Source: the human T2T-CHM13v2.0 reference genome, Homo sapiens
Reading direction: 5' to 3' (one strand)
Assembly (NCBI RefSeq): GCF_009914755.1
Contig: NC_060943.1
Length of the DNA stretch: 64,000 bases
Below are positions 35,775-58,995 of the stretch, one piece after another. Every line of letters starts with the position of its first letter. Position 1 is the stretch's first letter. The notes beneath the pieces were generated by a model. It was not told the origin of the DNA. It saw only the letters and a list, made by a program, of their open reading frames with translations, and made no database searches. The translations under genes were made by a program, and so were the position numbers.

Positions 35775-35779
35775 CGAGT

Positions 35780-36847: not shown

Positions 36848-37152
36848 GGCTGGGCGCGGTGGCTCACGCCTGTAATCCCAGTACTTTGGGAGGCTGAGGT
36901 GGGCGGATCATGAGGTCAGGAGATCGAGACCATCCTGGCTAACACAGTGAAACCCCGTCTCTACTAAAAATACAAAAAATTAGCCAGGCATGGTGGTGGG
37001 CGCCTGTAGTCCCAGCTACTCAGGAGGCTGGGGCAGGAGAATGGTGTGAACCCAGGAGACGGAGCTTGCAGTGAGCCGAGATCACTCCACTGCACTCCAG
37101 CCTGGGCGACAGAACGAGACTCCATCTCAAAAAACAAAAAAAGAAGAAGAAA
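36848..37152 (+). mobile_element. Alu (Y-like)
   Basis: TSD-like aaatcatttgactct/aaatcatttggctct. Confidence 0.95.
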
Positions 37153-38826
37153 AATCATTTGGCTCTAGGACACATTCTAGACCCCAGGAGGTAATAACAG
37201 TGACAGAAGCCACATCCACTCTTAGTATGCCTGCTGCATTTTCACAGAATGTTGTGCATGAATTACTGTTCCCCAATCCTTCCACTCCTGGAGGTTAAGC
37301 CTCCCCCTTCAACACCTTCATCTCCAGCTGGCCTGCCAGGACTATGGCTGGGAAATACCTCCCCACCTTCCATGCCCAGGGTGGCACCTTTGCCCATTCC
37401 CATAACTATAATAGCTCACACTGATGCAGCACTCACTGTGCACCAGCACTATCCTAAGAGCTTTCTAGCTAGCTACAGTCCTCGCCAAAAAATCCTGAGT
37501 GTTATCATCCCCATTTTTACAGATTAAAAAAAAACTGAGGCAGAGATGTGAAGTAATGTACCCAGTGTCACCCAACTCATTTAACCTCATCCTCCACTTT
37601 ATCTGGGAAGAGGACACCCTAAGATTTCCAAGATGTCCTGAATAACATCCACCTTCCAGAATGGTTTTTGCCCCCTCTACTCTCAGGATTTGACAAACAG
37701 CCAGTATTTCGTTTTCTGTCTTACCCTTCACTTATGCACCTGTTCTCTAACGCCACAGTCACAACTGCACAGCCCGGAATAAAAGCTGGCTTTTACGGAC
37801 CTCAATCTCTTTGGGAAAAAAACAGGGCCAGGTTCCCAGTCATCATAAAAAGTCATTTGTACTCTATTGTCAACTATTTGCACAGCCATTCCCTGGCCAT
37901 AAATGATGTATAGTACCAACAATAAGTGTAATGAGAAGAAAGCAGGAAAAGCATGAGTTCCTGGAATGGTCACAAAGAGGAGAAGATTTCAAATCCAGAA
38001 ACAGTCATAAAACACACCCAGAGTGTGAGGCCTCTGAGCAATGACAGCCCCACCTGCCTCTTTCCATGGCTGGTGGCCTCTGACTTCCTTCTCAACCTGC
38101 CCCACCCGGCCTTGCTTTATTAAACCGATACTAATAGCTTGGAATTGGGGCCAGACCAGTGCACACAGCACTGAGTGGTGGGGTGGAGGAGCTGAAAAGG
38201 GAGAAGAGTGTTTGACTTATGAAGACCTGACTCACTTAGGTACACATCACCTGGGCGGGAAATGGTTTAGTGAAGGGCTGTGCAGAACTCATGGTGTTTA
38301 TCCAAAATGAGTGACTGAGGCAAGTGTCTAAATTAATTGTTTATTGAGCCAGACCTTGAGGGTACACCCTAGGAAAACACAAGTCACAGAAAACCTCTGT
38401 GGCTTGTGTTCTCTCTGAAGAGGTTTTCAGGAGGCCTTAAAGGGGGGAAGGCAGGTAGGAAGAGGCGGGTAGGTGGAAGAATGATTGTTCTTGTCTTTGT
38501 TCTGTGCCTAGAAAGATAAGCATTATCAGCCTGAAATCCTAAGGACTAAGACTAAAGCCTTAGGAACCAGACTTAGATTTCAGAACTGAAGATACAATCG
38601 ACATGTCCTTGTTATATGGGAGGATATACATCTTAAAAATTTTAAGGCCAGCAAAGAACAATTTGTGAGGGCAGTCATCCAGAAATACCTAAGGCCTTTT
38701 GCTTTCCTATAGAGGTCTGTTTAATGTACAATGTTTTGACACAAGGTTTTATAGTAACAGCGATCCATCTGGGGAAATGATGATGATGTTGCATGACTCA
38801 GTCTCAAAGCTTAACTTTCCCTTTGA

Positions 38827-39252
<426 letters not shown>

Positions 39253-40189
39253 AACCCCTGAAATTCCTCAAAATCTTTCAGAGAAAGCATTATAGAAGAT
39301 ACGAGTTTGTGATTGTATGTTTCATCTGATCCTACATCACCAGGAAAGCTCATTCCTAGGAAGTTGTGTCTCATGGAGAAGGGAGTGAAGTTGCATCAGA
39401 AAAGGACCGAAGCCAAGTTACAGGAACAAAAGGAAAGTAATTGTGGAGCCCTATTTGGGCTACACAGCTGCCTCTTCAATTAAAGCAATTCTTTGAGCAA
39501 TCATCACCCTAACCGTTTCAGTTGTATGTTGGTTCGATCGTAATATCTGGAGCAGTCTATGGACTAGTTTTTCTAGAGCCTCTGAAGCTCCTTGAGATTG
39601 CAGTGGCAGATTTCTCTGGATTGTAGTTTGAATTAGATGTTCAAGTGAACCTTTTGAGTAGCCATACATCAGCAGGCACAAAGGTTGTTGTTATATAAGT
39701 TGTAATTTCTCCTGAAATTCACTTAAGTTGTCTAGCTTCAGGTTGCAGGGCTTTAGGAAAAAGCACAGTTTTAATTTCTAATGATTCCAAGTCAGAAAAA
39801 CAGAAGAAAAATTTGAAAGTGTTATTTTCAAGACTTGTAGCCAGGAAAGAATTCAGGATTCAGTACAAATTGTAAGGAAATAACAAAACTCAAAAACAAT
39901 GAGCAACACCAGAATTTAATAACAGCTGTACTGTAGTTTCTTCTGAAACATAATGTTTTCTGTCTCCAGTTCTCCATTTTTACAAAAGCCAAATTATAGT
40001 AGGACCCAAATTATTTGCAAAATAAGTTTTAGTCTTATACTTGGCCTGAAATTTTCATTTTGGAAAGTTTGTCAAATATCAAAGGTCTAAGACACTTGTT
40101 CAAAATTGGTCATAGGTCACTATAAAATCATAGTTATTAATTTAGCCAAAGTGATAATTCAAAAATTTTAAGAGGGAAAAATCTTCATT

Positions 40190-40435
40190 TTTTTCATTTA
40201 TGTATTTATTTATTTATTTATTGAGTCAGGGTCTCGCTCTGTCACCCAGGCTGGAGTGCAGTGGCACCATCATACCTCACTGCAGCCTTGACCTTCAGGG
40301 CTTATGCAATTCTCCCAACCCAGCCACCTGAGTATACGGGACTACAGGTGCATGCCACCGCACCTTGCTAATTTTGTTATTGTTGTTGTTTTTTGTAGAG
40401 ACAGAGTCTCTATTTGTGGCCCAGGCTGATCTTAA
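40190..40435 (-). mobile_element. Old Alu, 5' part missing
   Basis: Ends at caggctgatcttaaa and abuts an L1. Confidence 0.85.
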
Positions 40436-40438
40436 AGT

Positions 40439-40678
40439 CAGGTGGGAACTGAACAATGAGAACACTTGGACACAGGGTGGGGAACATCATACACCGGAGC
40501 CTGTCATGGGGTGGGGGTAGGAGGGAGGGATAGCATTAGGAGATATACCTAATGTAAATGACAAGTTAACGGGCGCAGCACAACAACATGGCACGTGTAT
40601 ACATATGTAACAAACCTGCATGTTGTGCACATGTACCCTAGAACTTAAAGTATAATTTTTAAAAAAGGAAAAAAAAAG
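40439..40678 (+). mobile_element. L1PA 3' end, 5'-truncated
   Basis: ggtgggaactgaacaatgagaacacttggacacagg...gcacatgtaccctagaacttaaagtataat + A tail. Confidence 0.95.
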
Positions 40679-41523
40679 ATGCCACCTGTGTTAATTAGCT
40701 TAGGAAAAAAATAGACACCAAGGTAACACAAAATGATAGATATTTACCTTAGGATTTTATGAGGAGATTTATTTTCTTTAGATAGGTCACTTTTGATTTA
40801 GGGTGTGTTTTCCAACTGGACCGCTGAGCTCAAGATGGAGCCCAGCAGGGCCAACAAATTATTTGCAGTTTGTGGGGCCTAATAATTTAAATATGGGAAA
40901 AGCGGGCACAGTTGGAAAGCAGAGCATTTAGATCTTTAAACATTAAGGATTCCACTGAACCCCAGGTTCCCCAAAAAAAGGAAAATGCAAAAAGGACCAT
41001 GCTGTACAACCCTTCCACAGTTGTACTTTGCTACAAAGGCATTTTTCTAATTGTTTAAACCGTGTCTTTCTTATCAAAACATGCAAAGAAATGAGTAGCC
41101 TTCTGAAGTAATAATTATTTATTGTAACCACTGTCAGTCATCTCCAAAACTGTAGCTCTCACCCCTGACCCAGCAGCCATCACACACACAAGGCCGAGTA
41201 TTTTTACAGTACGATGCAATCTCTGATGCCTCCAGAAGCCAAAAACATCAGATAACACAACAGAAAAGAGCAGAGTGTTAGACCTGAGAGAAATCTGGTC
41301 ACTTAAAATTCCTGAGGCTCCATGAGGAAAAACAGACTTTTTTTAAAAAAAAAAAATATTTTAGGTACCTTGTTATCAGATTTTAGCTGGGACAAACAAC
41401 TGCTATTTCTGGTTTTTGAATTTTTTTTTTAACCAAAGTTGCCCTCCCAATTAAAACTAATAAGGCTTAACCAGGGTTGTGACTTAACCAAGGATGTACA
41501 AGGCATATCCAAATAGATGAATG

Positions 41524-41936
<413 letters not shown>

Positions 41937-42919
41937 CTATTAGAAGAGAAGGTGGAGTGCCTTTTATTCGTATTTTCTCAGGAGATCTATAGCAAGCAGT
42001 TTAAGCTTACAAAAGATTTTAACTTTGTTTTAGGTCAAATTTTTGTAATTTACTCAAGAGAATTTTTAAAGCTAGCTACAACACTATGATGCGTCTTTTT
42101 CTTTTAATTTTATCTTTCCATCACCTATTTAAAATAAAAGATCTCCAAAATCTTTTTTTAATGTAGGAGTCCAATTTAAAGGATCCATCTTCTGGCCATT
42201 AGTAATTAGAATTTCCAATGGTGTACTGATCCCAATAATGAATCAACCCAGCAGTTTCTTCAGTGATGAAGCAATCCCAAAGATCTGTCCCCTCAACAAA
42301 ATAAAATATTCACTCCCAGGAATAGAACAGGACAGCAAAAGACTTTTGTTTCCATAGCACTAACCAGGCAACAACGGTTGGAACAACAAAAACCCCTTAT
42401 AGATGGGACTTCTTATAACAAATCCTCCTGGGAGTTCAACTCATTTGGAACAAACAAAACAAAACAAAAAAATCTCAGGTCCCAGTCATTCTCAGGCTGA
42501 TCACCTGATATGACTCAAAAATCACACCTCCCAGATGGTGGGGACCAAGAGCAAGTGCTCCCACTTGGTCACAAATGAAGCCTTCAAGGACATAAAACAA
42601 GATGAGAGGGAATTTTATTTGGTACCCTTCTTTATAAACAACACAGAATGAAAGAGACAGAGGAAAAGACTATTTCTGGAAGGAAAGGGATTAAACAATA
42701 TAAATATTCATATGGAAAAATGCACCAAATACTACACCACAATCTCTACACCCAGGCTAGTCATACACAAATCTTCTCCCATTAACCAAAATTTTGCAGA
42801 GAAAACTGATTTTTCCTGTCTGCTTGACCAGATTGCACAGGGAGAAGCCAGGAGCCTCGCTGATAATAAACTCTACCCTTTTGGTGGTTGATCATTTTCC
42901 TGGATTCCTGCATGGCCAA

Positions 42920-43278
42920 AAACAGGTTATGGGGGTAAATCAGGTTTAAGTAGCAAGACAGGTTATTCGAGGGAGAAAGGAGGAAGTCTGGCTAACGAAG
43001 ATGGTCTTGTTATATAGATGAAACCTCACAGGTAGCAGCCCTCAGAGAGAACAAATGGTAAATATTTCATTCAGGTCTTTAAGGTATAAGGCTCAGTTCA
43101 TTTTTCCCAGATCCAGACAAAAGAAAGCCTGTCTGTATTAATGGGGATTCTCTACAGATGCCAATTTTTCACATGAAAGACAGCTTTGCAGGCCACTTCT
43201 GCCTGCTGGCCCTCTGACAGACATCTCAAAATATGTCAAAAAATATATTTTTGGGTACAATATTCTTATTTCGTTCAA
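42920..43278 (-). mobile_element. MER34/MER39-like LTR fragment nested in the provirus
   Basis: caggtagcagccctcagagag...agacagctttgcaggcc...caaaatatgtcaaa. Confidence 0.6.
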
Positions 43279-45381
43279 CTGACAGGTGATTCCCAGAGGT
43301 AGAACTTGATGTTCTGCAGTTGCAGGGGTTTTAGCCAATTTTGAGGCCAGCTCACCATAATGTAGAGCTCCTGCTGGATTTGACCAAGTTGGAAGGTGTT
43401 TTGGACACTAGACAGGGCCAAGAGTTGGACAAACTCAAAGGAAGAATGACAAAAACCAAAAACACAAAAAGTGATTGCACTTTACATATTACATATTGTT
43501 GAACACTGTAAGCATGAGGAGAGATTAAAGCAAACTAGCAATAAACTTTGACCTGCAGCTACCACATTTTAAAACAAAACCCCAACCCAGCTCTTTATCT
43601 CAGAGGGGACCAAGCTGAAGGCTGCTCTCCATTGTCACAGGAGAAGGCAACTCACCTTCCTTATAGGAAGTGAGCAAAGCTGCATGAGTAGAGGAGTTCC
43701 ATGGCAAAACAAAACTCGGATCTCAAACAAAAAATTGTGGGGAGCAGGGACCTCAAGAGGGAGTAGGATCCAGTCCTTGGAAAGTCACACATTTGGTCAG
43801 AGCTAAAGCTCGATAGTTGGTACTGAGCATAAACAGGAGAATCGCTGCAGGCCTAAGGGGCTAAGCTCCACTCAGAGGATCCCTTCATGGTCACCAAAAT
43901 GTTAACCAAAATGATTGACTGAGGCAAGCAAGTGTCAGTCCATTGAGGTTTACTGAGCCAGAGCTTGAGGGTGCACCCTGGAAAAACATAAGTCATAGAA
44001 ACCATCTGTGGCTTGTGTTGTCTTTGAAGAGGTTTTCAGGAGGCCTGGTATTTATACTTCTCCTTAAAAGGGGGAAGGCACGTAGGAAGATACAAGTAGA
44101 GGAAAGAATGATTTGTCTCATCTTGTCTTTCTTCTTGGATAGATAAGCCTTATCAGTGTGAAATCTTAGATTGCAAACCTAAAGTTAGTATTGACATGTC
44201 CTTGTTTTGTGGAAGGATATACATCTTGAAAGGTTTCAAGGCCAGCAAAGAACAATTTGTGAAGGCAGTCATCTAGAGATGCCTGAGGCCTTTTCACCTT
44301 CTTGTGGGAGGTCTGGCTATAACGTACAATGCTTTGACACAAGGTTGTGTAGTAACAGTTGTTCATCTGGAGAAAAGATGGTGGCATTATGTGACTCAGT
44401 CTTCAGACTGAACTATCCCTTTGGTGTAATGAGTGTGACATGAGATTTTTATTTTCCCTTACATAATTTTAGGAGTTGTACTTCCTTGATGCTGTCTGAC
44501 TGAGGTCAAAAGGATGGGTGTGGAAGGCATCACACCTTTCTCCCATTTAGAAATCCATTGTCCCTTCCTTCTCCCTTATTGGGTTACATTCCTCTGTCCA
44601 TAGATCACGTATTTACTGAGTTGTTTTCCACGGGGAAAAAAATCTCAATTGAACTCTTTAAAGCTCCAAGCATTTAATTCAGTTCAAGAGTGTCTCTCAT
44701 TTTAATGATGACCAGGCACAAATATTTTTAAAACGCTCTCCAGAAAATTGTGATAAGAGCCTCTGCACAACCCACAGTAGCTTTGGAGAGCACTGAGCTA
44801 CAAAAGTGATGGGGAAGGAACCTGCTACATGCTGGGACCTTTATATTTCCACCTTATCTAATGTCCCCAATGATGTTTTAAGTAGGCACTATTATCACCC
44901 TATCCCAAGACATCAATTAACTTGTCCTTTATCTCAGAATTGGTCAAAGGTGGAACCAGGATTCCGACTCACATATTTCTGAATCTAAAGGTCTTGTTTC
45001 ACTGCAGAGCGATTGAGCGTACATGAACTCAAAGAAAGACAGGATGACTGATTCTAACAGAAATAACCACACAGGCTTCAATGAAGAGTCAGGGTCTGAA
45101 ACGGGCCTTAGGACAAAGAACAGCTCAGGAGGCTGAGAAGACAGTTGAAGGTATTGCGGGAAGGTGTGAAAGAATTAGAATAAGTTCAGACATGAAAACA
45201 TAAAATGTGGGTCAAGTCTTTCTACACAGACCAAGGGAGTAGACTGGGGCTGTGTTATGGGGGCTTTGAATGGCAGCCTAAGGAATTGGAACTTCATCCT
45301 ATGGATGATAGGAGTCATTGGAAAGCTTTGAGAAGGTCAGAGACATGACAAACAGCATTTCCAGGAAGATTACTCTGACAG

Positions 45382-46799
<1,418 letters not shown>

Positions 46800-46879
46800 A
46801 CAGTCTTAGGCAAGATAACAAGTGGTTCTGAACTCTGGCAACTTAATAGAATTATCTGGAAGCTTTCATCTTTTTTTTT

Positions 46880-47440
46880 TCTTTTTTTTAACTTCTCATT
46901 TTGAAATAATTTCAGACTTTCAAAAATGTTCCAAAAATAGAGTCCCCATATACTTTTCACTCAACTTCCCCAAATATTGTTTTAGATAACCACAGTGCAA
47001 ACATTAAAATCAATAAATGATCAGTGACATTGTACAGTAAATAAATTGCAGACCTTATTCAAATCCCTTTTATCTTCCCAGTGATGTCCTCTTTCTAGAC
47101 CAGGATCCAATCCAGGATCACACATTGCATCTCATTTTTCTGTCCTCTCAGTCTCCCTTAATCTGGGACAGTTCCTCAGAATTTCTTTTGCCTTCATGAC
47201 CTTAACATTTATGGAGAGTATTGGAGTTATTTTGTAGCATGGCCCTCAGTTTGGGCTTTTCTAATATTTTCTCCTGATTAAACTCAGATTATGCACTTTA
47301 GGCAAGAATAGCATAGATATGATGCTGCGCCTTCTCCATGCATTGTATTAAGATGCCCTAAGATGCAGATATCTCTGATTACTGGAGATGTTAACTTTGA
47401 GCACTGGGCTAAAGTTCCTCCACTGTAAAATGGCTATTTT
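46880..47440 (-). mobile_element. Old L1 (L1MC/ME) 3' fragment
   Basis: ttttgaaataatttcagactt...caggatccaatccaggatcacacattgcat pattern. Confidence 0.65.
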
Positions 47441-47766
47441 CTTTGGAAGCATTTTTAAGTGACCAATACCCCAGGCCACACTATGGACCAATCAAATCAG
47501 ACACTCCTGGGAAAAGGCACAGGCATTGGTAGGTTTTAAATGCCCTACAGCTGACTGTAACCAGCATCCAGGATTGGAAACCCACAGCTTAGACAGTGAA
47601 GATTAGAATCCTGGAAATCAGTCAGGAAGCCATTCTTTGGGCCTAACATCCAGTTCCAGACACAATATTTGGCATGGGCCCATGGTAGGGGAATGGAAGG
47701 CCAAAAATCTCCTGATTGGGAAAATGATGGGTGAGTAGACTGCTGTCCAATAAAAATAGAAGGCAG

Positions 47767-48075
47767 GGCCAGGTGTGGTGGCTCATGACTGTAATCCCAG
47801 CACTTTGAGAGATCAAGGCAGCCAGATAACTTGAGCTCAGGCATTCAAGACCAGCCTGGGCAACATGGTGAAATCCCATTTCTACAAAAAAAAATAATAG
47901 CCAGGCATAGGTAATATGTGTCTGTACTTCCAGTTATTTGGGAGGCTGGGGTGGGAAGATTGCTAGGGTCCAGGAGGTTGAGGCTGCAGTGAGCCATGAT
48001 TGCACCACTGTGCTCCAGCCTGGGCAACAGAGCAAGAACCTGTCTCAAAAAAAAAAAAGAGAGAGAGAGAGAGAG
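47767..48075 (+). mobile_element. Old Alu (J-like) with (GA)n tail
   Basis: Diverged dimer. Confidence 0.92.
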
Positions 48076-49834
48076 AAGGCAAAATGCTAAGTAAGGTGTC
48101 CAGCCCTTCTGGAGTATTTTCTCTCCAGACTATAGAGAAACCTGTATTGTAGAGAAAGCACACACCATAAAATTTAACTATCATAAGCCTGATGTGAACT
48201 CCTAATTGCCACTAAGAAGAAGGAAATTATAAATCATGTGATAGAAATATATGACCACATATGCAGAGATGCACACTTCCGGATACAGTTGAATGAAAAA
48301 TTCACAGAATCCACGTCAGAGGTACACCACCCCGCCCTCCCCACTTGGTCCTTTGTCCTTAATCTCTTCTGAAGTAAGAGAACGAAGACTGTTGTAAATT
48401 TCACAAAATAGGGAAGTGTACAAATCTCCTGTCACCTGGCTGTTTAAGCAACAGGACACTGTGCTCAACTTCCCTAGAGTTATTATCTTGGGTTCTCCAT
48501 AAAGGAATGCCATCAATCCTCTCTTCAGAGGGACCATCTAATAACATGCAAAAGGAAATGCCAATTTCACCAAAACCCAGAGGCAGGAAGGACCCTGACA
48601 GGAACAATCCCTAAGGTATTCACATGCCTGCCAGGGTCTGGTGCAGCTGGTGCAGGAGGAACTGCTGCTGGCAATAGCTGGAAAAAAAAAAAAGGGACGG
48701 CAGCTCTAACACTCAGGGGGTAGTAAGAAAGGAGCTCACTCAATTCACCTTCAGTTCTCACACAGCCAATACCCTTCCAGCCTCCCTGTGGGGCCTCACT
48801 GGGAGGACTGGCACATAATTAAATGCCAATACATGGGTAAAATAATTTACAGAAGGGTGGGATCAACTGGGTCAGAAAAGGTTGAAGATTTCACAAAACG
48901 GGAAGGATTTGGGTTAGGCCCCGAAAGACTCAGCCTTAAGAAAGCAGACACAAAGAGAAACAGAAGCCCAAGAAAAGCATCTAGCCTTCCTGGCCAATTT
49001 TCTATTCAGACTTCAGAGAGACCTTTATCGTAGTGAAAGCAAATGTCATATAAATTTACTATCCTAAGCCTGACATGAGCTCCTAATTGCCACAGATGGG
49101 ACGGAAATTATGAATCGTGTGATAGAAATACACAACGCACGCAAAGATGCACACTTTGCACCACTCTGGATGCACAAAGATGCACACAGGCCCCACTGGA
49201 GATGCTAGTTTTGAAGAAGGTCCCAGGAAGAAGAGTGGGTTTGCAGATGTTATTTTATTTGCTCTTCTCAAACACCATATGGGGATATTTCACAAGGAGG
49301 ATTCTCGTCCTCAGAAAGGGGAAGTAACTTGCCAAGGTTGTTGGTGGATGTGGGATTAGAACCTCAGTGAGTCTAACACCGGAGCCCATGCCACCACCAC
49401 TACCACCGAGAGCCCTGAACAGGGTATGTGTAGGGAACAGGTAGGAGCAGAGAGAGTTAAAGCAGAAAGAAACCATTTTAAAACAGGGAAGTTAGGTAAG
49501 CTTGCTAAATGGGGATCATATGTTGCAGAGGCATGAACACTAGACAGTCGTGTGAACTTGATCTTCTGATTACAGAAAAGACAAGACAAAAGAGGGTGTG
49601 AAAATGGGGTTCTGGGTTCCTAAGCTAAAGAGATGCCACCAACAACAGTGAAGGAGCCATGAGATGTGTGGAGAAAGAACTGGATGGAGAAGCTGAAGCC
49701 CTGAGTTTAAATGCAAAAAGTCATAAAGTAAGGGCATGGCTGTGGAGGGCAAGTTATATTCTCTCTCTGCAGTTTGGTCTCTCTTCATCTATAAATCACA
49801 TGGAGTGAGAATTAATGTCTAAATGACCCTCAAC

Positions 49835-49992
49835 CCTTGCTACTCAAAGTGTGGCCCACCAACCAGCAGCAACAACATGTCCAAAAGCTCCTCAGAAATG
49901 CAGAATCTCAGACCCCACCAGAAGGATCAGAATCCGTATTTTAACAAGAACTTGGGGTGACCTGTGAGCACATTAAAGATTGTGAAGCAGTT
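49835..49992. mobile_element. MER5A-like DNA transposon
   Basis: tgctactcaaagtgtggccc...agaaatgcagaatctcagacccca...ttttaacaaga. Confidence 0.7.
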
Positions 49993-51015
49993 CTCCGAAA
50001 TGTCTTCCAGTTCTAAAATGCAGTGATTTCACACTCATCTGAACTTTGTCACCTCACAGGAGAAAGAAGGAAAATGGCATTTACATTTTACCTCGTTCGT
50101 GACCTTTTCTTAATCCTAACAGCCTCTTAGACTCGCCCGCATCTGGGTAGAGGTTTTAGAAAACACCAGAGAGGCAGGGCTGCCACCTTGTGACTATCAT
50201 CAGGAAACGCACTTAACTCTTAACCAGTCTCACCAGTCAAGGACGGGACGGGGCTGGAGCAGAGAGGGTATACGGGATGAACTCCAAGTCACAGATGAGA
50301 TAAGGGAGTTATAACCACCCACAAAGGCTGGAAGTAACTGTCAGAGGGGGCTCAGCCTGCATCATAAAGCAATGTCCCCTTGCAAAGGACAGTTTTTATA
50401 ATACTTACTATGTGATATCAGTAGGAAATGGTTCCAGGTCAAGCTCTGCCCTTGTAACCTTAAAACTTACTCTAACAGGTATTTTCAACATCAGCCTCAG
50501 CCTGAACTCTGCCAGTAAACTTGTAACTTTCCAAGGAAACTTACTCTACTGTAACAGTTCTTTTTCATCCGGAGACAAAATGTATCTGATTCGCAGTCAC
50601 CGATCCTCACACTACTCTCTGTAGGCTGAATAAGTCTAACAGCTTTTCATACAACTGACCTTCAAATATTGGTTAAGAAAAAAACAAAACCACCATGTGC
50701 TGCCCATACCACCATTCCTTGGCCGTTTCCCATGTGGGGTCACCTGAAGCCCCACACCCTCTGATCACGTTCCAATGGGCAAGTGAAGTGCAGTAACAAC
50801 AACAGACACTCTGAATCCTAGGAGTGTCCCCAGAGCAGCAGAGCCACAGGACCCCCGTCCCCGTCCTGGCGCCTCACCGCTACCTAGAAGCCAAATGCCA
50901 CATCAGCTGATCTGGGGACGCTGACTTCTCCTGCTTATGCCACTGCTCAGTCATCCCACACCTGTGCAGGTGTCTACTTTTTATTCAGTTTTATTTGTAA
51001 GAAATATTTATCTGA

Positions 51016-51516
<501 letters not shown>

Positions 51517-54419
51517 TTATAGGAGCCTGCTGTGTACTGTCACTGGAGAGACAAAGGTGAATCACACCCGGTCCCTGGCTTGCAGAGCTCCAGGCTATGG
51601 ACGGAACCCACTCAAAGTCAGACCATTACTATTCAGTGAGAAACACCGTGACAGGCATCAGAAAAGGGTTTTCTGACCCATCTCACCAATGCCCTGTGAA
51701 AAATCTGCTGTTGGTTTTCTGGGCTCAGTTTTTCTCATTTCAAGTTCAGAATGAAAAAGAGAATGTAAATGTCCCTGATGGTCCTTTGTGCGGTCACAGC
51801 TGTACCCGGCATGTCCTCCCAGTTAATCCAGGGTGCTCAGGGCTCCCACTTCACTCTGAGCGTCCTCTTTCCTATCGGAGCTCACCACGTCTGCACCTGC
51901 AGCAGCCAGGTGGCTGCACACTAATAGAAAATCCAGCAAGTCAGAAAACTTGATTTACTCCTGTAAATTTGAGGCCAGTGACCTTGTGACATTGAACTAC
52001 TCCTATAACTTCCCTGCACTTTAATTTCCATGTCTGTAAAGTGGGGCAGGTGGATTCGGTCACCCTAGGTGCAGCTATATAGTGAGAGCTCCTGAGAGAC
52101 AGCAGCACATCTGATCTTCTCGCATCCACCATCTAGCAAATACCAGGCACACACTAGACGCTCAAAGCCTCACTGAATGTGTGTGTGAATAAATGACTAT
52201 ATGAGAGCCATGTGGATCATGGACAAAGTCAATAAATATTTTTGAACATCTACCAAGTACACTGTAGAATAGGGAAATAAGTAACCCAGGCAGGGTGGTG
52301 TTTTCTCCTAACTTCCCCTGACCACCTTCCTGGAGGTGGGAAGGACTCTGTACATCAGGGAGACTCTTGACACAAATAATGTTCTTGAGATGCATTGCAA
52401 GAAGTCATGTTAACAAGAGGAAAGTCCATTTGTCTTGGGGGTGTTTTAGTCAATGGATCTGAAGGACCCGAAGCCCCCTCTGATGACACACAGGGTGCAA
52501 CACCCACCCTAAGTTCATGGAGGGGAAACCAGATGGAGTGAGTTGACAGGGAGCAGGACCTGGAAGAACAGGGGGTAAAGAGACTGAGGCACCCGGAGGG
52601 AGGTCTGAGGAGTTGCTCCCAACCCCTGCGGTGGCCTCGGTGTGGACTGATGCAGAACTCAGCAGCATAAGTAAGTAAAGTGGCCGCACCAGGCTCTATG
52701 CATACATGGGACCATTTTTCAGTAAGATTTTCTTTCTGCTAATGGGCTTCACTTTTGCCCACTTTCTAACACATCAGGACAAGTTAATAGGTTACAAACC
52801 ATCATTCCATTCAGCAGTCATTTATAGAATACTCCCAAAGTGCCAGGCCCTGTGTGAGTTCAGGCAATACAAAAATGAACATAAAAGCTCCTGTCCTCTA
52901 AGATCCCCATCCAATGAGCTCCAGGGAGCACCTCTCCTACAACACGCCCCTGCTCTGCACGGCCCTCCTCTCTGCCCTCCACCAACCCAAATCCTCCTCC
53001 ACCTCCAGCTCAAGTTCCACCCAACCAAGTCCCTCTCAGTCCCCCTGCACTCCTGCCACTTTGAGAGATGACTGCACTCATATCTCTAGGTTTTATGAAG
53101 TGGATGTCATCTCCCTGGTTAGACTTGAGCCTCCTGAAGGCAGAGACCATTTTTAGAATTTTCCAGAAAAAAAGCCACATCAGTAATTTGCATCAGAACA
53201 AGCTTAGACTCTGCTCAAGCCTTCAACTTAGACAGAGACTCCACTGCCTAGCACAGTCCCTGGTCCCTGCAGTGCTTTATAAACCCTGCAGTAGCAAAGT
53301 CCACAATCAACTCGTGTGTCAGTCAACAGGCTGGGATAAGTTGAAAATGCAGACAGAGAAGAACAGTCAAACAAAAATCAAAGGGCTTTGACTCATGCCT
53401 TGCCTCTTCCCTTTTCTCAGGGAAACAAAGTCACACCCCCTGCTCTCACTCCTGCCTGGAGGCTTCCAGGGAGGGCTCCCTTGTTAGCCTTCCCTTCAGC
53501 CCCCATGAATATCACCCAGCATTCAAGCCCAGCCTCTCCTCTCCCTTTGAGCACATTTCCTAAAGTCTCAAATAAATGTCAAGTTTAGTGAGTGCTGATA
53601 TTCTATGCCCCTAATGTTTACTTCAAGTATTATTACCTTTCTTCTTTTGCCCGGGGCCATTTCCAAACAAGGGCTGGAGCCAGGCGCCCCAGCAGCTGGG
53701 CAAACACACTTCAGGGCTCCTTCCCTCCTGTGGCTCCTGTTTCTCAAACCCTCTGGGACCTGCAGCTCTGGGGGTCTCTTCCCCCAACCCAGTTCCCTCC
53801 CCTTTAGACCAGAACAACTAAGCCATGGCCACCTTCCCGATGGACACACAAGGAGGCCTGGTGTCACCCACTGCTCCAGGGGCGGTGTTCTCGGCAGGGG
53901 AGCTGCCTCTTGTCCCGGATCCTGCTCTGCTGCCACCTTATGTGGCTGCAGAATTGGAGGGAATTGTGAACAGAGAGAGGACAGGGCAACTTCCCAGGCA
54001 ACAACACTACTATTGCCAATATTTTGCCAAGGATGGGAGCAGGAGCACAGAGGGAAAACAGACCTTGTCAACGTCTCCTCCACCAACACATAACACCCAC
54101 TTTCCTGCCAAATACTCAGATAGAGAAGGTCACTGAAAGTACAAGAAAATTCAAATGAGAAAAAAGACTTGAGGAAGAAACCATGAGGCATTGGGGTGTG
54201 GGGAGGTGGGAAGGAGTACAGGAGAGAACTGGCATGGCTGCCAAGTTGTCAGTCACCTTCTTATGTTCTTAAGAATGCTGCATTTCTTTTGTTTGACCAG
54301 TTTCACTTCCCAGATTCCCGTAAAGCACATGGTCTAATCTGTTACCTAACAGCAGGAAAGCATGATCTCACCTGTTCTTGCCCTCAAGTAGGAACACTGC
54401 CCTGGGACTATACTGCAGA

Positions 54420-54586
54420 CCACCAGGCTGAGCCATCCCCAGAGGTCAGGAGCTTCCAACCGGGAACCTTTCATACACTCTTCAAGCAACGTACAGCTCC
54501 ACCGACAGTCACAATAAAAATTCTAATATCTTCCCTCCTCCTGTTGCTGATGTCCATGGTCTCTAGCAGCCTGAATCCAGGTAAAT
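54420..54586 (+). pseudogene. CXCL17 exon 1 relic (5' UTR + signal peptide), start codon ATG>ATA, 12-nt deletion
   Basis: 54514-54580 translates IKILISSLLLLL----MSMVSSSLNP(G) versus CXCL17 MKVLISSLLLLLPLMLMSMVSSSLNPG; phase-1 donor CAG|gtaaat intact. Confidence 0.88.
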
Positions 54587-54980
54587 AAGACTGTCTATGA
54601 AGGGGAAAACGGGGGGAGGAAATGGAGCAAAACAGGCCACAGGTGCATCAAAATGTAGCCCTTTCAGCTACAGGGATTGGGAGCAAGTGAGCCTTTTTCA
54701 GTGCCAGTTTCCTCATTTACTGAAAGGAGCAAACTGTACTTACATCTAGTGTTGTGAGGGTTAAATGAGATATTGTATGTGAAAGTGTCTGCAACTACAG
54801 CTGGCAGATATATACATATGTACATATTGGTTCAACGAATATTTGCTCCCATGCCTTCACCCCCAAGCCTTTTCCAGAAGAGTAATGCATTTCCCCAGGG
54901 TCAAACTTGGTGGCAGTAGTGGGAGGGTATTGAAGGCAACCATATATTTATAAAAGATAAGGAACTCTTTGCTTATATTC

Positions 54981-55205
54981 TTTTTTTTTTTTTTTAAAGA
55001 CAGGATCTTACGCTGTCGCCCAAGCTTGGAGTACAATGGTGCAATCATAGCTCATTACAGCTCAAACTCCTGGGCTCAAGCAGTCTTCCTGCCTCAGTCT
55101 TCCAAGTAAGTAGGGCTAAAAGTGTGCACCACTCTGCCTGCCTAGTTTTTCCTTTTTTTTTTTTTAGAGTCAAAGTATCACTATGTTTCTCAGTCAGATC
55201 TCAAA
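54981..55205 (-). mobile_element. Old partial Alu
   Basis: Poly-T head and diverged right arm. Confidence 0.8.
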
Positions 55206-56181
55206 CTTTGCTTGTATTGTTTATATTCTTTAGAGTGCACCAAGCATGACATACTTTAATGCTATTCAATGGTAGCTAATAAACGGAAGAAAATCCTATC
55301 ACCAGGTAGTGTCCGTATTTGAAGCTTTAGCCACACCAAGCCCTGCTGCAACAGTGCACCATTTGGGTAGCAGACCTTTGGCTAAGGCTTTCTAATCTGC
55401 TCCAGTTTTCACTACAACCAAAGTGGCCAAGCCCTTTGCAAAGAAATCATGCAGAAGACAGCTTAGCCCCATGTATATTTCCACTTGGGAGCACCATCTC
55501 CCCAAGGGCCACTTTGAGGTGAAACAGCTTTGTTACATACTCAGCGTCAACTTGGTCCTAAAATCAGGAGATGTTCAGCCTTCTCCACTCCAATTTCCAA
55601 TGTTCCTTGCTTTGTAGAGAGAGCGCTCTGGAAGCTGCTGAGCCCCATAGCCCTGGGGCCTAAACCACCATTCAGGAAGGGAAGGTTTTTCCATCACTGT
55701 GACAGACACCCAGGCCAGAGTCCTCAGCCTAGACTAAAAGGTCTAGCCCCAACCTCCGTTTCCAGTGCAACCCCCTCCACTCACTAAAAATTACTCTCTC
55801 TCCACCCAAACTAGACTGTTTGCCCTTCCCTGAACAGGGCTTGTGTTTTCCCACCAGTTCAACTTTGCAGATACACTCAACTCAAAAACCATCTTCCCAC
55901 AGGCCAGACAAGTGCTCAGCTCCTCCCACACCCAGACAATCACTCTCCATCCTGAAAGCTGGCTTAGCCCTACTGGACTCTCTCTTCTTGCACTTATCTG
56001 CTGCCTTATATTGAAGACCTTCCTGTGTCTCTCCTGCCTCCACCCACTACCCTTCGAGGTTGCAGCCTCCTTGGCAGCACAGACTGGTGCACTGTTTCCA
56101 TATCCCTCATGCTATCCAGCTCAGCACTCAGCAACCATTAGCTAACCGCACGAATGCGTCCTCAGGTTTCTAAATCAAACC

Positions 56182-56412
56182 AGGGCTTCAGAGCAGCTCT
56201 ACTGACAACTGGGCTGACCGATTCCTTGTAGTGAGGGCTGTTCTGTGCATTGTGAGATGTTCAGCAGCATCCACATGCCCTCTCTCCACTACATGCCAAT
56301 AGCAGCCTTCCCCCTCCCTCAAGCACCCTCTTCCTTCATGAAAGCAAAAAATATTTCTAGATATTGCCAAATGTCTCCTTGAGGGAAACCACCCCTAGTC
56401 GACAACCATTGC
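56182..56412 (+). mobile_element. MER20-like DNA transposon
   Basis: gggctgttctgtgcattgtgagatgttcagcagcatcc...atattgccaaatgtctcctt. Confidence 0.78.
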
Positions 56413-56726
56413 TTTATACCAATAGTTCTCCACCTGGCCCACACATTTACACTTATCTAGGCATTTACCCTCAGCCTGGAAGTCAGGGGGGCCTAGATCC
56501 AAATCCTGGTTCTGTCACTCCCTTTGCAACCCTGGACAAGTCGCTTCATTTTTTTTCTAGCCTTTTTATCGTCTTAAGATGAATAAATACCACTGTTCAC
56601 ACAGACTTGTTGTGAAGATTAGATGAACCTCAGTGTAACCTGGAAAGGGTTCAATAAATGGACTGAATGGAATTTCTAAAGTCGCTCCTAAAGCACTAGG
56701 GTGAGGAACTGGGGAAAGCTCGCTGC

Positions 56727-56742
56727 GCCGCCAGGGGGCGCC
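56727..56742 (+). promoter_or_regulatory. Candidate CTCF site in a small CpG-rich patch
   Basis: gCCGCCAGGGGGCGCc, consensus core. Confidence 0.7.
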
Positions 56743-56891
56743 ATCACAAACCACCTCGGTGGGTGGCGCCGGGCTCGAGCTTTGTTTCCCAGCCAAGTAG
56801 TTTGTAATGCGGGCCTGACTCTGAGCTACTTAGTGGCTGGAAGAAATAATAGCCCCTCCATTCCCAAAATAAATCTCAAAATAAAATCTAA

Positions 56892-57202
<311 letters not shown>

Positions 57203-57486
57203 GCATTGTTTATTATGTCGCTGATATTGTCCCAAATTTGGCCATTGGGAGTTCCTTCTAGTTGGTTTCTGTGACTTTTGACACAACCCCATCATTTTTC
57301 AAGCAGTTCCTTACTTCTGGCCCCACAGAATGTTTACTTCTGGCCCCACAAGGCTCCTCTTGTGCTTTCTTGCCCAGCCCTGGATCAGCTATTTCTCCAG
57401 GGACCCCTGGTTCCTTTCATGGGAAAATGATGTTTACAGACCATGGGCACCCATATGCCCATTGCTAGTAGGTGCCGGTGCTTCTA

Positions 57487-57502
57487 TGCCCTCTAGTGGT
57501 CG
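57487..57502 (-). promoter_or_regulatory. Candidate CTCF site
   Basis: Reverse complement cgaCCACTAGAGGGCA. Confidence 0.6.
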
Positions 57503-58459
57503 GAGCTGGGAAATAACACACCCACACTAGTGTACTGTTACCCACATTTCACAAATTAGGTAAATGAGGCACAGAAAGTTAGACAACTTGACCAACATCA
57601 CAGAGAAAATAGGTAGTAGAACTGGAAAACAAAAATAATGACAGATGCACAAGTCCTAACAAGCAAAAGTAACTTCTTCACACATGCATGTTAGCAGAAA
57701 GCCACAAGCCCAATATTCCAGCATAGACACTCTCTTTGGAAAATAACCAGAATTCCACAGCAATAAACACAATGATAACCATCACGTACTCAACACCCGC
57801 CTGGACACTGGGCTCCCACATATTCCCAACAACTCTGCAAGGAGGATTTTACCATCCTCCTTTTACAAATCAGGGAATCAAGGATCATAGAAGCCAAGTG
57901 ACTTGTCCAAGTCAACATAGTTAAGTGACAGAACCATTAGCTGAGCCCAGGTCTATATCTGGATATAAATTCCATGCTTATGCCACTATATAAGCGTTTC
58001 CCAAAACTGATTTTAGGTGAAACATAAATAAACTTTTAAGTTTAACTGTGTTTATTTTAACGCATGACAGGAAAAAAAATTAAGCACACATCAAATCTCT
58101 GATTTCATGGACAATATTGCATAAGACAAAAATATTTTGTCTTCAGTTCCTGGCCTCAAGCCATCCTCTCACCTCAACCTCTTGAGTAGCTGAGATCACA
58201 GGTGTGAGCCACCAAGCCCTGCTAAGACAAGGATGTTTTGTAAACTAAATTTAATTACAAAAAAAGTATGAAGTAAATAATAATAAAGGTGGTAAAGCTG
58301 TAGAGAAAATCATAAAGTTGGTCTAGAAATGTCTGGGGTCTGGATGACATAATACTACAGCATCATGCAGCTTCATTCTCAGTTACTCCCAGGAAATTAG
58401 AGTCACATAACACTGCAGAAAGAACAATTCAGAATCTTAGACCCGGGCTTTAGCCCTGG

Positions 58460-58995
58460 ATGTGTCCACTCCTAGGACCCCAAACATCTCTGTGACCTCC
58501 TTGCTGGGGGTAAATCCAACCTTCCCAGACGTGTGAGAACACTAGGAACATCCTGCACACATAGAGGGGTTTCTCTGTCACAGAGAAAATAACACCAGGT
58601 TTGAGGACCCCAGGGACTCTCTGTGTGGTGCTGACAGACCCAAGGCCCAGACACAGCAGAGGTCCGTGCTGGGGAGAGCGGGTCGTCCTGTTATGGAACA
58701 GGGGTCCAAACAAGCTTGCTTCTCAGAGCATCTTCTGGGGAACTGAATATAAACAGAAAGGGAAGAGGAGGAGGGACAAAAGAGACAGAAATGAGAGGGG
58801 AGGGGATAGAGGATTCCTGAACAGAGACCGCACCCATGACCCACGTGACCCTGGGAAATGCTTCTATCCCTGAGAGGAGGCTCAGCACAGAAGGAGGAAG
58901 GACAGCAGGGCCAACAGTCACAGCAGCCCTGACCAGAGCATTCCTGGAGCTCAAGCTCCTCTACAAAGAGGTGGACAGAGAAGACAGCAGAGACC
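58460..58995 (+). promoter_or_regulatory. CEACAM6: CEACAM6 promoter and 5' UTR; E-box CACGTG at 58842-58847
   Basis: Paralogous to the CEACAM5 promoter. Confidence 0.85.

What the first reader, a model, noticed from the sequence alone, without database searches (positions are those of the whole stretch)
54420..54586. Disabled copy of chemokine CXCL17 exon 1 between CEACAM5 and CEACAM6
Seen: 54514-54580 reads ATA AAA ATT CTA ATA TCT TCC CTC CTC CTG TTG CTG ATG TCC ATG GTC TCT AGC AGC CTG AAT CCA G|gtaaat = IKILISSLLLLLMSMVSSSLNP(G). Known: CXCL17 starts MKVLISSLLLLLPLMLMSMVSSSLNPG with a phase-1 intron at this point, and lies 3' of CEACAM1 in the same orientation. This copy has ATG>ATA (which also creates AATAAA at 54513-54518) and lacks 4 codons between TGCTG direct repeats, but the donor is intact. 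I see no exons 2-4 before CEACAM6. Inference: the duplicated CEACAM block extended through the CXCL17 promoter and first exon. A mucosal chemokine promoter therefore sits ~4.5 kb upstream of CEACAM6 and could act as an enhancer or alternative first exon. Its phase-1 donor matches the phase of the CEACAM6 N-exon acceptor at 59953, and in-frame ATGs remain at 54550 and 54556.
Basis: partly seen in the sequence, partly recalled or inferred. Interest (0 to 1): 0.82.

Follow-up and report, generated by a model that had tools for sequence, protein, structure and literature searches.

The report
Dead CXCL17 first-exon copy near CEACAM6
A broken copy of the promoter, first exon and part of the first intron of the chemokine gene CXCL17 lies between CEACAM5 and CEACAM6, left there by the old duplication that built this gene cluster; it cannot make a chemokine, and whether it still regulates anything is untested.

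Summary
Window 54415-54580 is a copy of CXCL17 exon 1. It sits in a 22-kb block (35779-58139) collinear with the CEACAM1-CXCL17 intergenic region, the CXCL17 upstream region, exon 1 and 5.5 kb of intron 1. The start codon reads ATA, 12 bases are missing between two TGCTG repeats, and the donor is intact.

Exons 2-4 are absent because the duplicated unit ends inside intron 1, about 3.4 kb before exon 2, and then joins CEACAM upstream sequence.

The same junction occurs behind CEACAM6, CEACAM7, CEACAM8 and CEACAM21. That points to one founding duplication. Three blocks keep exon 1 and two lost it by internal deletions.

The copied upstream region is the best-kept part of the block. It holds the only recent exchange tracts: 4 differences in 546 bases against the true CXCL17 upstream region, and 5 in 1203 against the CEACAM6-CEACAM3 copy.

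Coding function is dead. Enhancer or alternative-first-exon activity is neither supported nor excluded; no transcript or regulatory element is annotated there. It is an unannotated but ordinary duplication relic.

The parts
35779..58139 (+). Block collinear with the CEACAM1-CXCL17 intergenic region, CXCL17 upstream region, exon 1 and the first 5.5 kb of intron 1 (chr19:45278955 down to 45256661, minus strand)
   Evidence: Chain of low-copy blastn alignments, 72-94% identity
51515..54414 (+). Copy of about 2.7 kb of CXCL17 upstream sequence. It is the best-kept part of the block.
   Evidence: Window 51667-54796 is 88.6% identical over 3178 columns to chr19:45265039-45261928. Bins of 500 bases give 89-96% here, against about 70-87% elsewhere. 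The region is not repeat-masked.
54415..54580 (+). CXCL17 exon 1 relic: 5'UTR homologue 54415-54513 (14 bases missing near 54427) and coding homologue 54514-54580
   Evidence: Window 54415 aligns with the RefSeq TSS chr19:45262340. Four-way alignment. Translation.
54514..54516 (+). Lost start codon (ATA in place of ATG); together with 54513 it forms AATAAA
54541..54549 (+). Site of the 12-nt (4-codon) deletion. Its position is ambiguous within the TGCTG word that is repeated in CXCL17. The deletion is absent from the other two relics.
54578..54586 (+). Intact phase-1 splice donor CAG|GTAAAT
54581..58139 (+). Copy of the 5' part of CXCL17 intron 1, with lineage-specific repeat insertions
   Evidence: Window 55217-56905 is 82% identical to chr19:45261408-45259733. 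Window 57204-58139 is 81-85% identical to chr19:45258282-45256661.
58140..58573 (+). Junction of the duplication unit. CXCL17 intron-1 homology ends here: an ~80-bp interspersed repeat at 58147-58225, then 45 more bases of intron homology at 58230-58274. CEACAM1-upstream homology starts at 58573.
   Evidence: The sequence across this junction is continuous in four other CEACAM blocks.
52623..53825 (+). Tract nearly identical to the CEACAM6-CEACAM3 relic: 5 differing positions in 1203, longest identical run 424
   Evidence: In a permutation test 0 of 20000 shuffles reached the run.
53472..54017 (+). Tract nearly identical to the true CXCL17 upstream region chr19:45263285-45262740, about -945 to -400 from the TSS: 4 differing positions in 546, longest identical run 284
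   Evidence: In a permutation test 0 of 20000 shuffles reached the run.
52803..52808 (+). CATTCC (TEAD core). It aligns with the CATTCC at -1579 of CXCL17, the position a paper reports as a YAP/TEAD1 site.
   Evidence: PMC11825485, passages only
51013..51514 (+). About 500-bp insertion found only in this block, including an (AGGA)n array at 51311-51507
   Evidence: 509-column gap in both CXCL17 and the CEACAM6-CEACAM3 copy. TRF: period 4, 48 copies. Repeat-masked 50976-51514.

Best explanation
This is an unprocessed, truncated duplicate of the 5' end of CXCL17: the upstream region, exon 1 and 5.5 kb of intron 1.

Inferred origin. An ancestral tandem segmental duplication copied a CEACAM1-like gene together with everything downstream of it, as far as a breakpoint inside CXCL17 intron 1, and joined that point to CEACAM upstream sequence. 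Later rounds of duplication copied the unit again, junction included. As a result such a relic now follows CEACAM5, CEACAM6, CEACAM7, CEACAM8 and CEACAM21, and each is followed in turn by another CEACAM gene or pseudogene.

Shown from sequence. The window copy cannot encode a chemokine. Exons 2-4 were never part of the unit, the start codon is lost, and four leader codons are deleted.

Inferred state. It persists as neutral DNA. Its upstream part has recently been homogenised by interlocus gene conversion, both with the true CXCL17 upstream region and with the sister relic upstream of CEACAM3.

Any present-day role would have to be regulatory. That is possible but unshown.
For: Identity and extent:
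- E = 1.1e-262 against CXCL17 exon 1 and its flanks.
- A collinear chain links window 35779-58139 to chr19:45278955-45256661.
- Promoter and intron are both present, so this is not a retrocopy.

Copy number:
- Exon 1 occurs at only four places in the genome that the tool shows: CXCL17 and the relics 3' of CEACAM5, CEACAM6 and CEACAM7 (7 of 7 candidates scored).

Single founding event:
- All three blocks start at CXCL17-side coordinate 45278955-9 and end at 45256661.
- The CEACAM8 and CEACAM21 blocks also end at 45256661. Internal deletions removed 45263302-45258798 and 45264341-45258976 respectively.
- Sequence is continuous across the junction in all five blocks, whereas CXCL17 stops matching there.

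Lesions:
- ATA start and a 12-nt deletion.
- No exon 2-4 homology.

Gene conversion:
- 4 differences in 546 bases against CXCL17 and 5 in 1203 against the sister relic, with flanks differing at about 14-15% of positions.
- 0 of 20000 permutations reach the observed identical runs of 284 and 424 bases.
- Exact matches of 100 bases or more between the whole CEACAM5-CEACAM6 spacer and any other block occur only in 52623-54017.

No other feature:
- RefSeq has no transcript or functional element in the spacer.
- No Rfam hit in 50000-59000.
Against: CXCL17 is not the outgroup, as strict vertical descent from one founding event would require.
- Near the junction the K2P distances are CXCL17 to the CEACAM8 block 0.159, to the CEACAM5 block 0.187, to the CEACAM7 block 0.271 and to the CEACAM21 block 0.331 (878 sites).
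- In intron 1 the CEACAM7 block is the long branch.
- The history is therefore mosaic (unequal crossing-over or older conversions), and the simple model is incomplete.

The copied upstream region is about twice as well conserved as the rest of the block, also outside the near-identical tracts. Selective constraint could produce the same pattern as repeated conversion.

Lack of function is not shown. No expression, chromatin or population data could be consulted. The RefSeq functional-element track is sparse (only 2 CAGE clusters and 43 promoters on all of chr19), so its silence means little.
Confidence: 0.85

Rival explanations
1. The relic is a working regulatory element. The copied CXCL17 upstream region drives or boosts CEACAM6 transcription in mucosal epithelium, or starts a transcript whose first exon (54415-54580) splices to the CEACAM6 N exon at 59953.
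For: - The donor is intact and in the right phase, and there is no upstream ATG in 54415-54549.
- The upstream region is the best-kept part of the spacer.
- A tract with 4 differences in 546 bases matches the true CXCL17 upstream region.
- The reported YAP/TEAD1 core is retained.
- CXCL17, CEACAM5 and CEACAM6 are listed in the same airway epithelial expression programmes in a single-cell meta-analysis (bioRxiv 10.1101/2020.04.19.049254, passages only).
- The region is 4.5 kb upstream of the CEACAM6 TSS.
Against: - RefSeq annotates no exon, transcript, enhancer or promoter there.
- The core promoter and 5'UTR homologue are the less well-kept part: 83-93 of 100 identical per 100-base bin over 54300-54599, with a 14-base deletion in the 5'UTR.
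- AATAAA lies within the exon.
- A protein starting at 54550 would lack most of either leader.
- Co-expression is equally explained by the CEACAM promoters themselves, which are also paralogous.
Confidence: 0.2
2. The near-identical tracts reflect strong purifying selection on a conserved enhancer present in all copies, not recent gene conversion.
For: The whole 2.7-kb upstream homologue is less diverged than its surroundings in all three pairwise comparisons.
Against: - The edges are abrupt: differing positions fall from about 15% to under 1% within a few bases.
- The two tracts have different limits for different pairs. The copies 3' of CEACAM5 and CEACAM6 are identical over 52623-53471, where both differ from CXCL17 at about 13% of positions.
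- All 6 CpGs in the 546-base tract are kept in both copies.
- The CEACAM8 block copy of the same region is only 84-87% identical.
Confidence: 0.07
3. The relics arose by several independent duplications of the CEACAM1-CXCL17 region that happened to break at similar places.
For: CXCL17 is closer to some relics than those relics are to others.
Against: - Five blocks share the same end coordinate (45256661) and a continuous, homologous sequence across the junction, including an ~80-bp repeat at it.
- Four blocks share the same start coordinate (45278955-9).
- Unequal crossing-over between an existing relic and the true gene explains the distances without needing new junctions.
Confidence: 0.04

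Closest known systems
CXCL17 (chr19:45247666-45262340, minus strand), exon 1 and upstream region
   Same: Same upstream sequence, 5'UTR, signal-peptide exon and phase-1 donor, in the same order and with the same orientation relative to an upstream CEACAM gene.
   Different: No start codon, 4 codons deleted, 14 bases missing from the 5'UTR, and no exons 2-4. [quoted passage not shown] That motif is named as defining in bioRxiv 10.64898/2026.01.18.700233 (passages only).
Sister relics 3' of CEACAM6 (chr19:~44609324-44610322) and 3' of CEACAM7 (exon at chr19:44468854-44468776, minus strand)
   Same: Same exon, same position in the duplicated unit, same junction further downstream.
   Different: The CEACAM6-side copy has an Alu (about 325 bp) inserted in the first codons, and its start codon reads ATT. 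The CEACAM7-side copy keeps ATG, 26 open codons (MKVLISFLLLLLPLMLMTMVSSSPSP) and a GT donor, but its homology to CXCL17 stops about 130 bases upstream of the TSS.
Unprocessed pseudogenes that exchange sequence with their parent gene by interlocus gene conversion (textbook pairs such as CYP21A2/CYP21A1P and GBA1/GBAP1; recalled, not from a call)
   Same: A disabled duplicate in a segmental duplication shares short, sharply bounded, near-identical tracts with the working gene.
   Different: Here only the gene's 5' end was duplicated, and the exchanged tract is non-coding upstream sequence. The partners lie about 690 kb apart in inverted orientation. The direction of transfer is unknown, and no disease link is known to me.
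CEACAMP pseudogenes of the CEA/PSG cluster (for example CEACAMP2 and CEACAMP3)
   Same: By-products of the same rounds of block duplication. CEACAMP2 and CEACAMP3 sit just beyond the same junction in the CEACAM8 and CEACAM21 blocks.
   Different: They are relics of CEACAM genes and are annotated. The CXCL17 relics are fragments of an unrelated neighbouring gene and are not in the RefSeq annotation supplied.

Membership tests
Unprocessed (duplicated) partial pseudogene of CXCL17 | Homology to the parent exon and also to its flanking promoter and intron | tested here: met
   88.6% over 3178 columns spanning the upstream region, exon 1 and the start of the intron; 82% over a further 1.7 kb of intron 1
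Unprocessed (duplicated) partial pseudogene of CXCL17 | Lies in a duplicated block that keeps the parent's gene order and orientation | tested here: met
   It lies 3' of a CEACAM gene on the same strand, as CXCL17 lies 3' of CEACAM1. The chain is collinear over 22 kb.
Unprocessed (duplicated) partial pseudogene of CXCL17 | Disabling lesions or truncation | tested here: met
   ATG>ATA, a 12-nt deletion, and a unit that ends in intron 1 so that exons 2-4 are absent
Processed pseudogene (retrocopy) of CXCL17 | Exons joined without introns, a poly(A) tail, and no parental promoter | tested here: not met
   The donor and intron 1 follow the exon, the parental upstream region precedes it, and there is no exon 2-4 sequence
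Functional CXCL17 paralogue (secreted chemokine gene) | [quoted passage not shown] | tested here: not met
   No ATG at the start, and only exon 1 is present
Alternative first exon of CEACAM6 | Compatible donor and reading phase | tested here: met
   A CAG|GTAAAT donor in phase 1. In a script, 54550-54580 joined to 59953 onwards reads on in the native frame.
Alternative first exon of CEACAM6 | Transcripts that start at the relic or are spliced from it | not testable with these tools
   Reads, CAGE and long-read data are not available here. RefSeq RS_2025_08 has no such transcript: both CEACAM6 mRNAs start at window 58887.
Enhancer or promoter active in mucosal epithelium | Open chromatin, active histone marks or reporter activity | not testable with these tools
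   No RefSeq functional element lies in window 33881-58887, but none lies at the true CXCL17 promoter either, so the track is uninformative. One published TEAD core is retained.
Interlocus gene conversion tract | A sharply bounded run of identity far longer than the surrounding divergence allows | tested here: met
   Identical runs of 284 and 424 bases. The longest runs among 20000 shuffles were 168 and 333 bases, and 0 of 20000 reached the observed values.
Interlocus gene conversion tract | Phylogenetic incongruence shown with an outgroup, and direction of transfer | not testable with these tools
   No other primate genome is available. The CEACAM7, CEACAM8 and CEACAM21 blocks all lack window 53472-54017.

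The most novel reading that the evidence does not exclude
The copied CXCL17 upstream region has been recruited as an upstream regulatory module of CEACAM6, and its sister as one of CEACAM3. It would contribute the mucosal and inflammation-responsive expression that these primate-specific genes share with CXCL17, and it would be kept similar to the working CXCL17 promoter by ongoing gene conversion. Conversely, relic-derived sequence may have been written into the human CXCL17 promoter region (-945 to -400) within the last few million years, changing the regulation of a chemokine gene from its own fossil.
Probability: 0.15. Interest if true: 0.6.

Novelty: new member of a known kind. Interest (0 to 1): 0.36.

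Why it matters
There are three modest reasons.

1. The relic and its shared junction are a clean structural marker. Five CEACAM blocks (those of CEACAM5, 6, 7, 8 and 21) carry one and the same breakpoint inside CXCL17 intron 1. That ties them to a single founding duplication and gives a landmark for ordering the primate expansion of this medically important family. CEA (CEACAM5) and CEACAM6 are tumour markers and pathogen receptors.

2. The true CXCL17 upstream region shares a tract with only 4 differences in 546 bases with a relic about 690 kb away. Short-read mapping, variant calls, ChIP/ATAC signal and primer or guide design for the CXCL17 promoter can therefore cross-map to two other loci. 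For example, the published TEAD site is present three times.

3. If the relic proved active, it would be an example of a gene fragment donating regulatory sequence to its new neighbour. Nothing here shows that.

Tried and rejected
Chance resemblance: rejected on the E-value and the 22-kb collinearity.

Retrocopy: rejected, because the intron and promoter are present.

Hidden gene or RNA that might explain the good conservation of 51500-54500:
- There were no Rfam matches at gathering score in 50000-59000.
- The three longest ORFs I chose from the 11 ORFs of at least 80 aa in 51500-55000 (207, 162 and 121 aa) had 0 Pfam families at E <= 0.1.
- The 207-aa ORF (53568-54191, minus strand) is broken into 109 and 64 aa at the homologous place upstream of CXCL17, so I take it as a chance ORF.

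Protein-level search for the relic: tblastn with the CXCL17 protein against 164 kb found only the CEACAM6-side relic, at E = 0.12, and not the window copy. A 22-residue leader is too short for that route, so the case rests on DNA alignments.

A reading I had to correct: the three-way MAFFT alignment suggested that ATG>ATA and GTT>ATT are shared with the CEACAM6-side relic (note 2). That was an artefact of the Alu and its target-site duplication. Reading the sequence shows ATT and GTT before the Alu. The two relics therefore lost the start codon at the same base by different substitutions.

Evidence of constraint on the relic exon: it has fewer differences from CXCL17 than its flanks (3 substitutions in 67 aligned bases). 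That is expected if only the gene's own lineage is constrained, and relic-to-relic comparisons show no excess conservation. The counts are too small to say more.

Direction and order of the conversions: these could not be settled. In the overlap 53472-53825 the window copy differs from CXCL17 at 3 positions and from the sister relic at 3, while those two differ from each other at 6. The window copy is therefore the intermediate, but no outgroup copy contains the tract.

A megablast screen at >= 96% identity printed nothing, because the alignments run on past the tracts and fall below the cut-off. I replaced it with an exact 60-mer scan.

Literature:
- CXCL17 + pseudogene gave 68 papers. I read only the listing of the top 15 and passages of one of them, PMC3346806, and saw nothing on this.
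- CXCL17 + CEACAM5 + CEACAM6 + duplication gave 0 papers.
- CXCL17 + CEACAM1 + synteny gave 1 paper, on amphibian orthologues.
- CXCL17 + 'CEA gene family' gave 0 papers.
- CEACAM6 + CEACAM5 + enhancer + intergenic gave 2 irrelevant papers, judged from the listing.
- CEACAM + gene conversion + segmental duplication + primate gave 2 papers, listing only.
The ChIP primer positions of PMC13067748 (its Supplementary Table 3) could bear on which promoter parts are functional.
- I cannot exclude an Ensembl/GENCODE or subscription-journal record of these relics.
Full report
**1. The observation**

Window 54514-54579 reads IKILISSLLLLLMSMVSSSLNP and is followed by G|gtaaat. RefSeq places CXCL17 at chr19:45247666-45262340 on the minus strand. 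Its exon 1 is 45262148-45262340 and carries 79 coding bases, which gives a phase-1 intron. Those bases translate to MKVLISSLLLLLPLMLMSMVSSSLNP.

The alignment shows three things in the window copy:
- ATA stands in place of ATG. Together with the preceding A this makes AATAAA at 54513-54518.
- There is a 12-base gap between two TGCTG words that lie 12 bases apart in CXCL17.
- The donor is CAG|GTAAAT, against CAG|GTAAAC in the gene.

That includes the Met codons at 54550 and 54556 and the phase match with the CEACAM6 N exon. CEACAM6 exon 1 has 64 coding bases, and a script joining 54550-54580 to 59953 onwards read on in the native frame.

**2. More than chance, and how far the homology goes**

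A DNA search of the whole reference with window 54000-55200 hit the CXCL17 exon 1 region at E = 1.1e-262 (85% over 797 bases). I then ran blastn of window 30000-62000 against chr19:45240000-45351999 and removed multi-copy (Alu-type) hits. What remained was one collinear chain from window 35779 to 58139, running from chr19:45278955 down to 45256661. The chain covers the distal part of the CEACAM1-CXCL17 intergenic region, the CXCL17 upstream region, exon 1 and 5.5 kb of intron 1. Its best piece is window 51667-54796, 88.6% identical over 3178 columns.

At window 58573 the homology switches to the sequence just upstream of CEACAM1 (chr19:45348193) and continues into the CEACAM6/CEACAM1 exons. 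CXCL17 exon 2 (45253165-45253245) lies about 3.4 kb beyond the breakpoint. That explains why no exons 2-4 are present. DNA comparison over 164 kb found none, and tblastn found none below E = 0.5. The promoter and intron are present, so this is not a retrocopy.

**3. One of a family of relics with a single junction**

A repeat-free query (window 54330-54960) found the exon at only four places in the genome: CXCL17 itself and one copy 3' of each of CEACAM5, CEACAM6 and CEACAM7. All 7 of 7 candidates were scored, the other three matches were 41-50-base fragments, and matches in closed regions are not shown.

- The three blocks start at the same CXCL17-side coordinate (45278955-9) and end at the same one (45256661).
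- Two further blocks, 3' of CEACAM8 and 3' of CEACAM21, also end at 45256661. Different internal deletions removed exon 1 from them (CXCL17 coordinates 45263302-45258798 and 45264341-45258976).
- The sequence across the junction (window 57440-59640) is continuous and 75-86% identical in all five blocks. CXCL17 matches only up to 58139, plus 45 more bases at 58230-58274 after an ~80-bp interspersed repeat (in one search, 40 of 2301 candidates were scored).
- Each relic is followed by another CEACAM gene or pseudogene: CEACAM6, CEACAM3, CEACAMP2 and CEACAMP3, and, 14 kb beyond the end of the CEACAM7 block, CEACAM4.

I infer one founding tandem duplication whose unit ran from CEACAM upstream sequence to a point in CXCL17 intron 1, followed by re-duplication of that unit.

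**4. State of the three exon copies**

- Window copy: ATA start, 12-base deletion, 14 bases missing from the 5'UTR homologue, good donor.
- CEACAM6-side copy: an Alu of about 325 bp is inserted within the first codons, flanked by a target-site duplication. The start codon before it reads ATT. The two copies therefore lost the start at the same base by different substitutions. An earlier reading of a shared ATA was an alignment artefact.
- CEACAM7-side copy: ATG at chr19:44468854 (minus strand), 26 open codons (MKVLISFLLLLLPLMLMTMVSSSPSP) and a GT donor. Homology to CXCL17 stops about 130 bases upstream of the TSS. The next 17 kb are about half repeat-masked.

**5. Age and mosaic history**

K2P distances in the intron-1 part (1611 sites ungapped in all four sequences):

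| Pair | K2P |
|---|---|
| CXCL17 - window copy | 0.177 |
| CXCL17 - CEACAM6-side copy | 0.167 |
| Window copy - CEACAM6-side copy | 0.168 |
| CEACAM7-side copy - any other | 0.26-0.30 |

The 2:2 site patterns support pairing the two relics 3' of CEACAM5 and CEACAM6 (46, against 20 and 22), with bootstrap support of 100.

Near the junction (878 sites, six sequences):

| Block | K2P to the others |
|---|---|
| CEACAM21 block | 0.31-0.39 |
| CEACAM7 block | 0.26-0.29 (0.385 to the CEACAM21 block) |
| CXCL17, CEACAM8, CEACAM5 and CEACAM6 blocks | 0.14-0.19 among themselves |

With recalled neutral rates of about 1.1-2.2e-9 per site per year, 0.17-0.19 corresponds to roughly 40-85 million years. 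That is an inference and not a measurement.

CXCL17 is not the outgroup, which a shared junction with strict vertical descent would require. The likeliest reason is unequal crossing-over between an existing relic and the true gene, which buds off new relics that keep the old junction. Older conversions are an alternative. I could not resolve this.

**6. Recent sequence exchange in the copied upstream region**

The upstream homologue is the least diverged part of the block. In 500-base bins it is 89-96% identical to CXCL17, against about 70-87% elsewhere. Inside it lie two sharply bounded tracts:
- Window 52623-53825 differs from the CEACAM6-side relic at 5 of 1203 positions, with a longest identical run of 424 bases.
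- Window 53472-54017 differs from the true CXCL17 upstream region (chr19:45263285-45262740, about -945 to -400 from the TSS) at 4 of 546 positions, with a longest identical run of 284 bases.

The flanks differ at about 14-15% of positions. Shuffling the variable sites 20000 times never reached the observed runs; the longest shuffled runs were 168 and 333 bases. An exact 60-mer scan of the whole CEACAM5-CEACAM6 spacer against 319 kb of paralogous sequence found matches of 100 bases or more only in 52623-54017.

I read this as interlocus gene conversion. With 4 differences in 546 bases and recalled rates, it happened within roughly the last 1-17 million years (an inference with a wide Poisson range). 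The direction is unknown, because no outgroup copy contains the tract.

**7. What it does**

Coding function is excluded by the sequence. For a regulatory role the evidence is only circumstantial.

In favour:
- The upstream region is well preserved and still exchanging sequence with the working gene.
- The CATTCC at -1579 of CXCL17 is kept at window 52803-52808 and in the sister relic. It matches the YAP/TEAD1 site that PMC11825485 reports at 1572-1581 bases upstream of the TSS (passages only).
- The donor is intact and in phase.
- CXCL17, CEACAM5 and CEACAM6 appear in the same airway epithelial programmes in one single-cell meta-analysis (passages only).

Against:
- No transcript or functional element is annotated there. 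The track is equally silent at the true CXCL17 promoter and sparse chromosome-wide.
- The proximal promoter and 5'UTR homologue are the less well-kept part: 83-93 of 100 identical per 100-base bin.
- An AATAAA lies in the exon.
- A protein starting at 54550 would carry 10 residues from the relic, and would lack the 21 leader residues encoded by CEACAM6 exon 1.

I put the chance of measurable regulatory or first-exon activity at about 0.2.

**8. Novelty**

RefSeq RS_2025_08 does not annotate any of the relics. My text searches found no description of them. For most papers I saw only listings, supplements were closed, and subscription journals and Ensembl/GENCODE were out of reach.

The kind of object is ordinary: a truncated duplicate of a neighbouring gene carried along in a segmental duplication, with gene conversion between the paralogues. 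I rate it a new member of a known kind, with modest interest. Its value lies in the shared junction as a marker for CEACAM family history, and in the warning about cross-mapping in the CXCL17 promoter region.

Noticed in passing
chr19:44609324-44610322 (L005, L025/L026), between CEACAM6 and CEACAM3: Second CXCL17 exon-1 relic. An Alu of about 325 bp (44609521-44609845) is inserted in the first codons with a target-site duplication, and the start codon reads ATT. A 123-bp deletion lies opposite window 53826-53948.
   Followed up: partly
chr19:44468854-44468776, minus strand (L006, L028), 3' of CEACAM7: Third relic, with ATG, 26 open codons and a GT donor still intact. It lies in intron 2 of the Gnomon lncRNA LOC105372405 (exons 44482506-545, 44470796-925, 44463060-597), which runs on the same strand. 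The last exon of that lncRNA covers the duplication junction. No annotated exon uses the relic.
   Followed up: partly
chr19:45398827-45382279 (L033-L035) and chr19:44416247-44420437 (L036-L037): The blocks 3' of CEACAM8 and CEACAM21 carry the same CXCL17 intron-1 junction, followed by CEACAMP2 and CEACAMP3. Independent internal deletions of 4.5 and 5.4 kb (in CXCL17 coordinates) removed the proximal promoter and exon 1.
   Followed up: yes
window 57170-58145 and 55217-56905, with paralogues: CXCL17 is not the outgroup of the relics, and the CEACAM7 and CEACAM21 blocks are much more distant. The block history is mosaic and is not explained by one duplication plus vertical descent.
   Followed up: partly
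window 51013-51514: An insertion of about 500 bp found only in the CEACAM5-CEACAM6 block, including an (AGGA)n array of 48 units at 51311-51507. It lies directly upstream of the well-conserved CXCL17 upstream homologue.
   Followed up: partly
window 53568-54191, minus strand: A 207-aa ORF (and a 162-aa ORF on the plus strand) inside the GC-richer near-identical tract. There was no Pfam match, and the ORF is split at the homologous CXCL17 site, so it is probably chance.
   Followed up: yes
window 37171-38295: The part of the block just 3' of the CEACAM gene is also present 3' of seven PSG genes (matches just downstream of PSG3, PSG10P, PSG6, PSG11, PSG2, PSG5 and PSG9) as well as of CEACAM6, 7 and 8, at 77-85% identity. 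I did not trace how far the PSG blocks run towards the CXCL17 part.
   Followed up: no
chr19:45323863-45278959 (L015-L020): The CEACAM1-CXCL17 spacer holds about 45 kb that none of the CEACAM5, 6, 7 or 8 blocks has. In all four, homology resumes at 45278955-9, 30 bases to 1.9 kb after the end of the CEACAM gene. Either this is a deletion in the founder unit or an insertion at CEACAM1.
   Followed up: no
window 60121-62714 and chr19:45342163-45345371: The antisense lncRNAs LOC112268252 (in CEACAM6) and LOC105372407 (in CEACAM1) overlap homologous sequence: window 61105-62000 aligns with 45345355-45344160. They look like paralogous antisense transcripts.
   Followed up: no
window 44650-45150: A second, weaker peak of identity between the CEACAM5 and CEACAM6 blocks (92-95% in 500-base bins, with a 96-base exact match at 44898-44993). 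It may be an older exchange.
   Followed up: no
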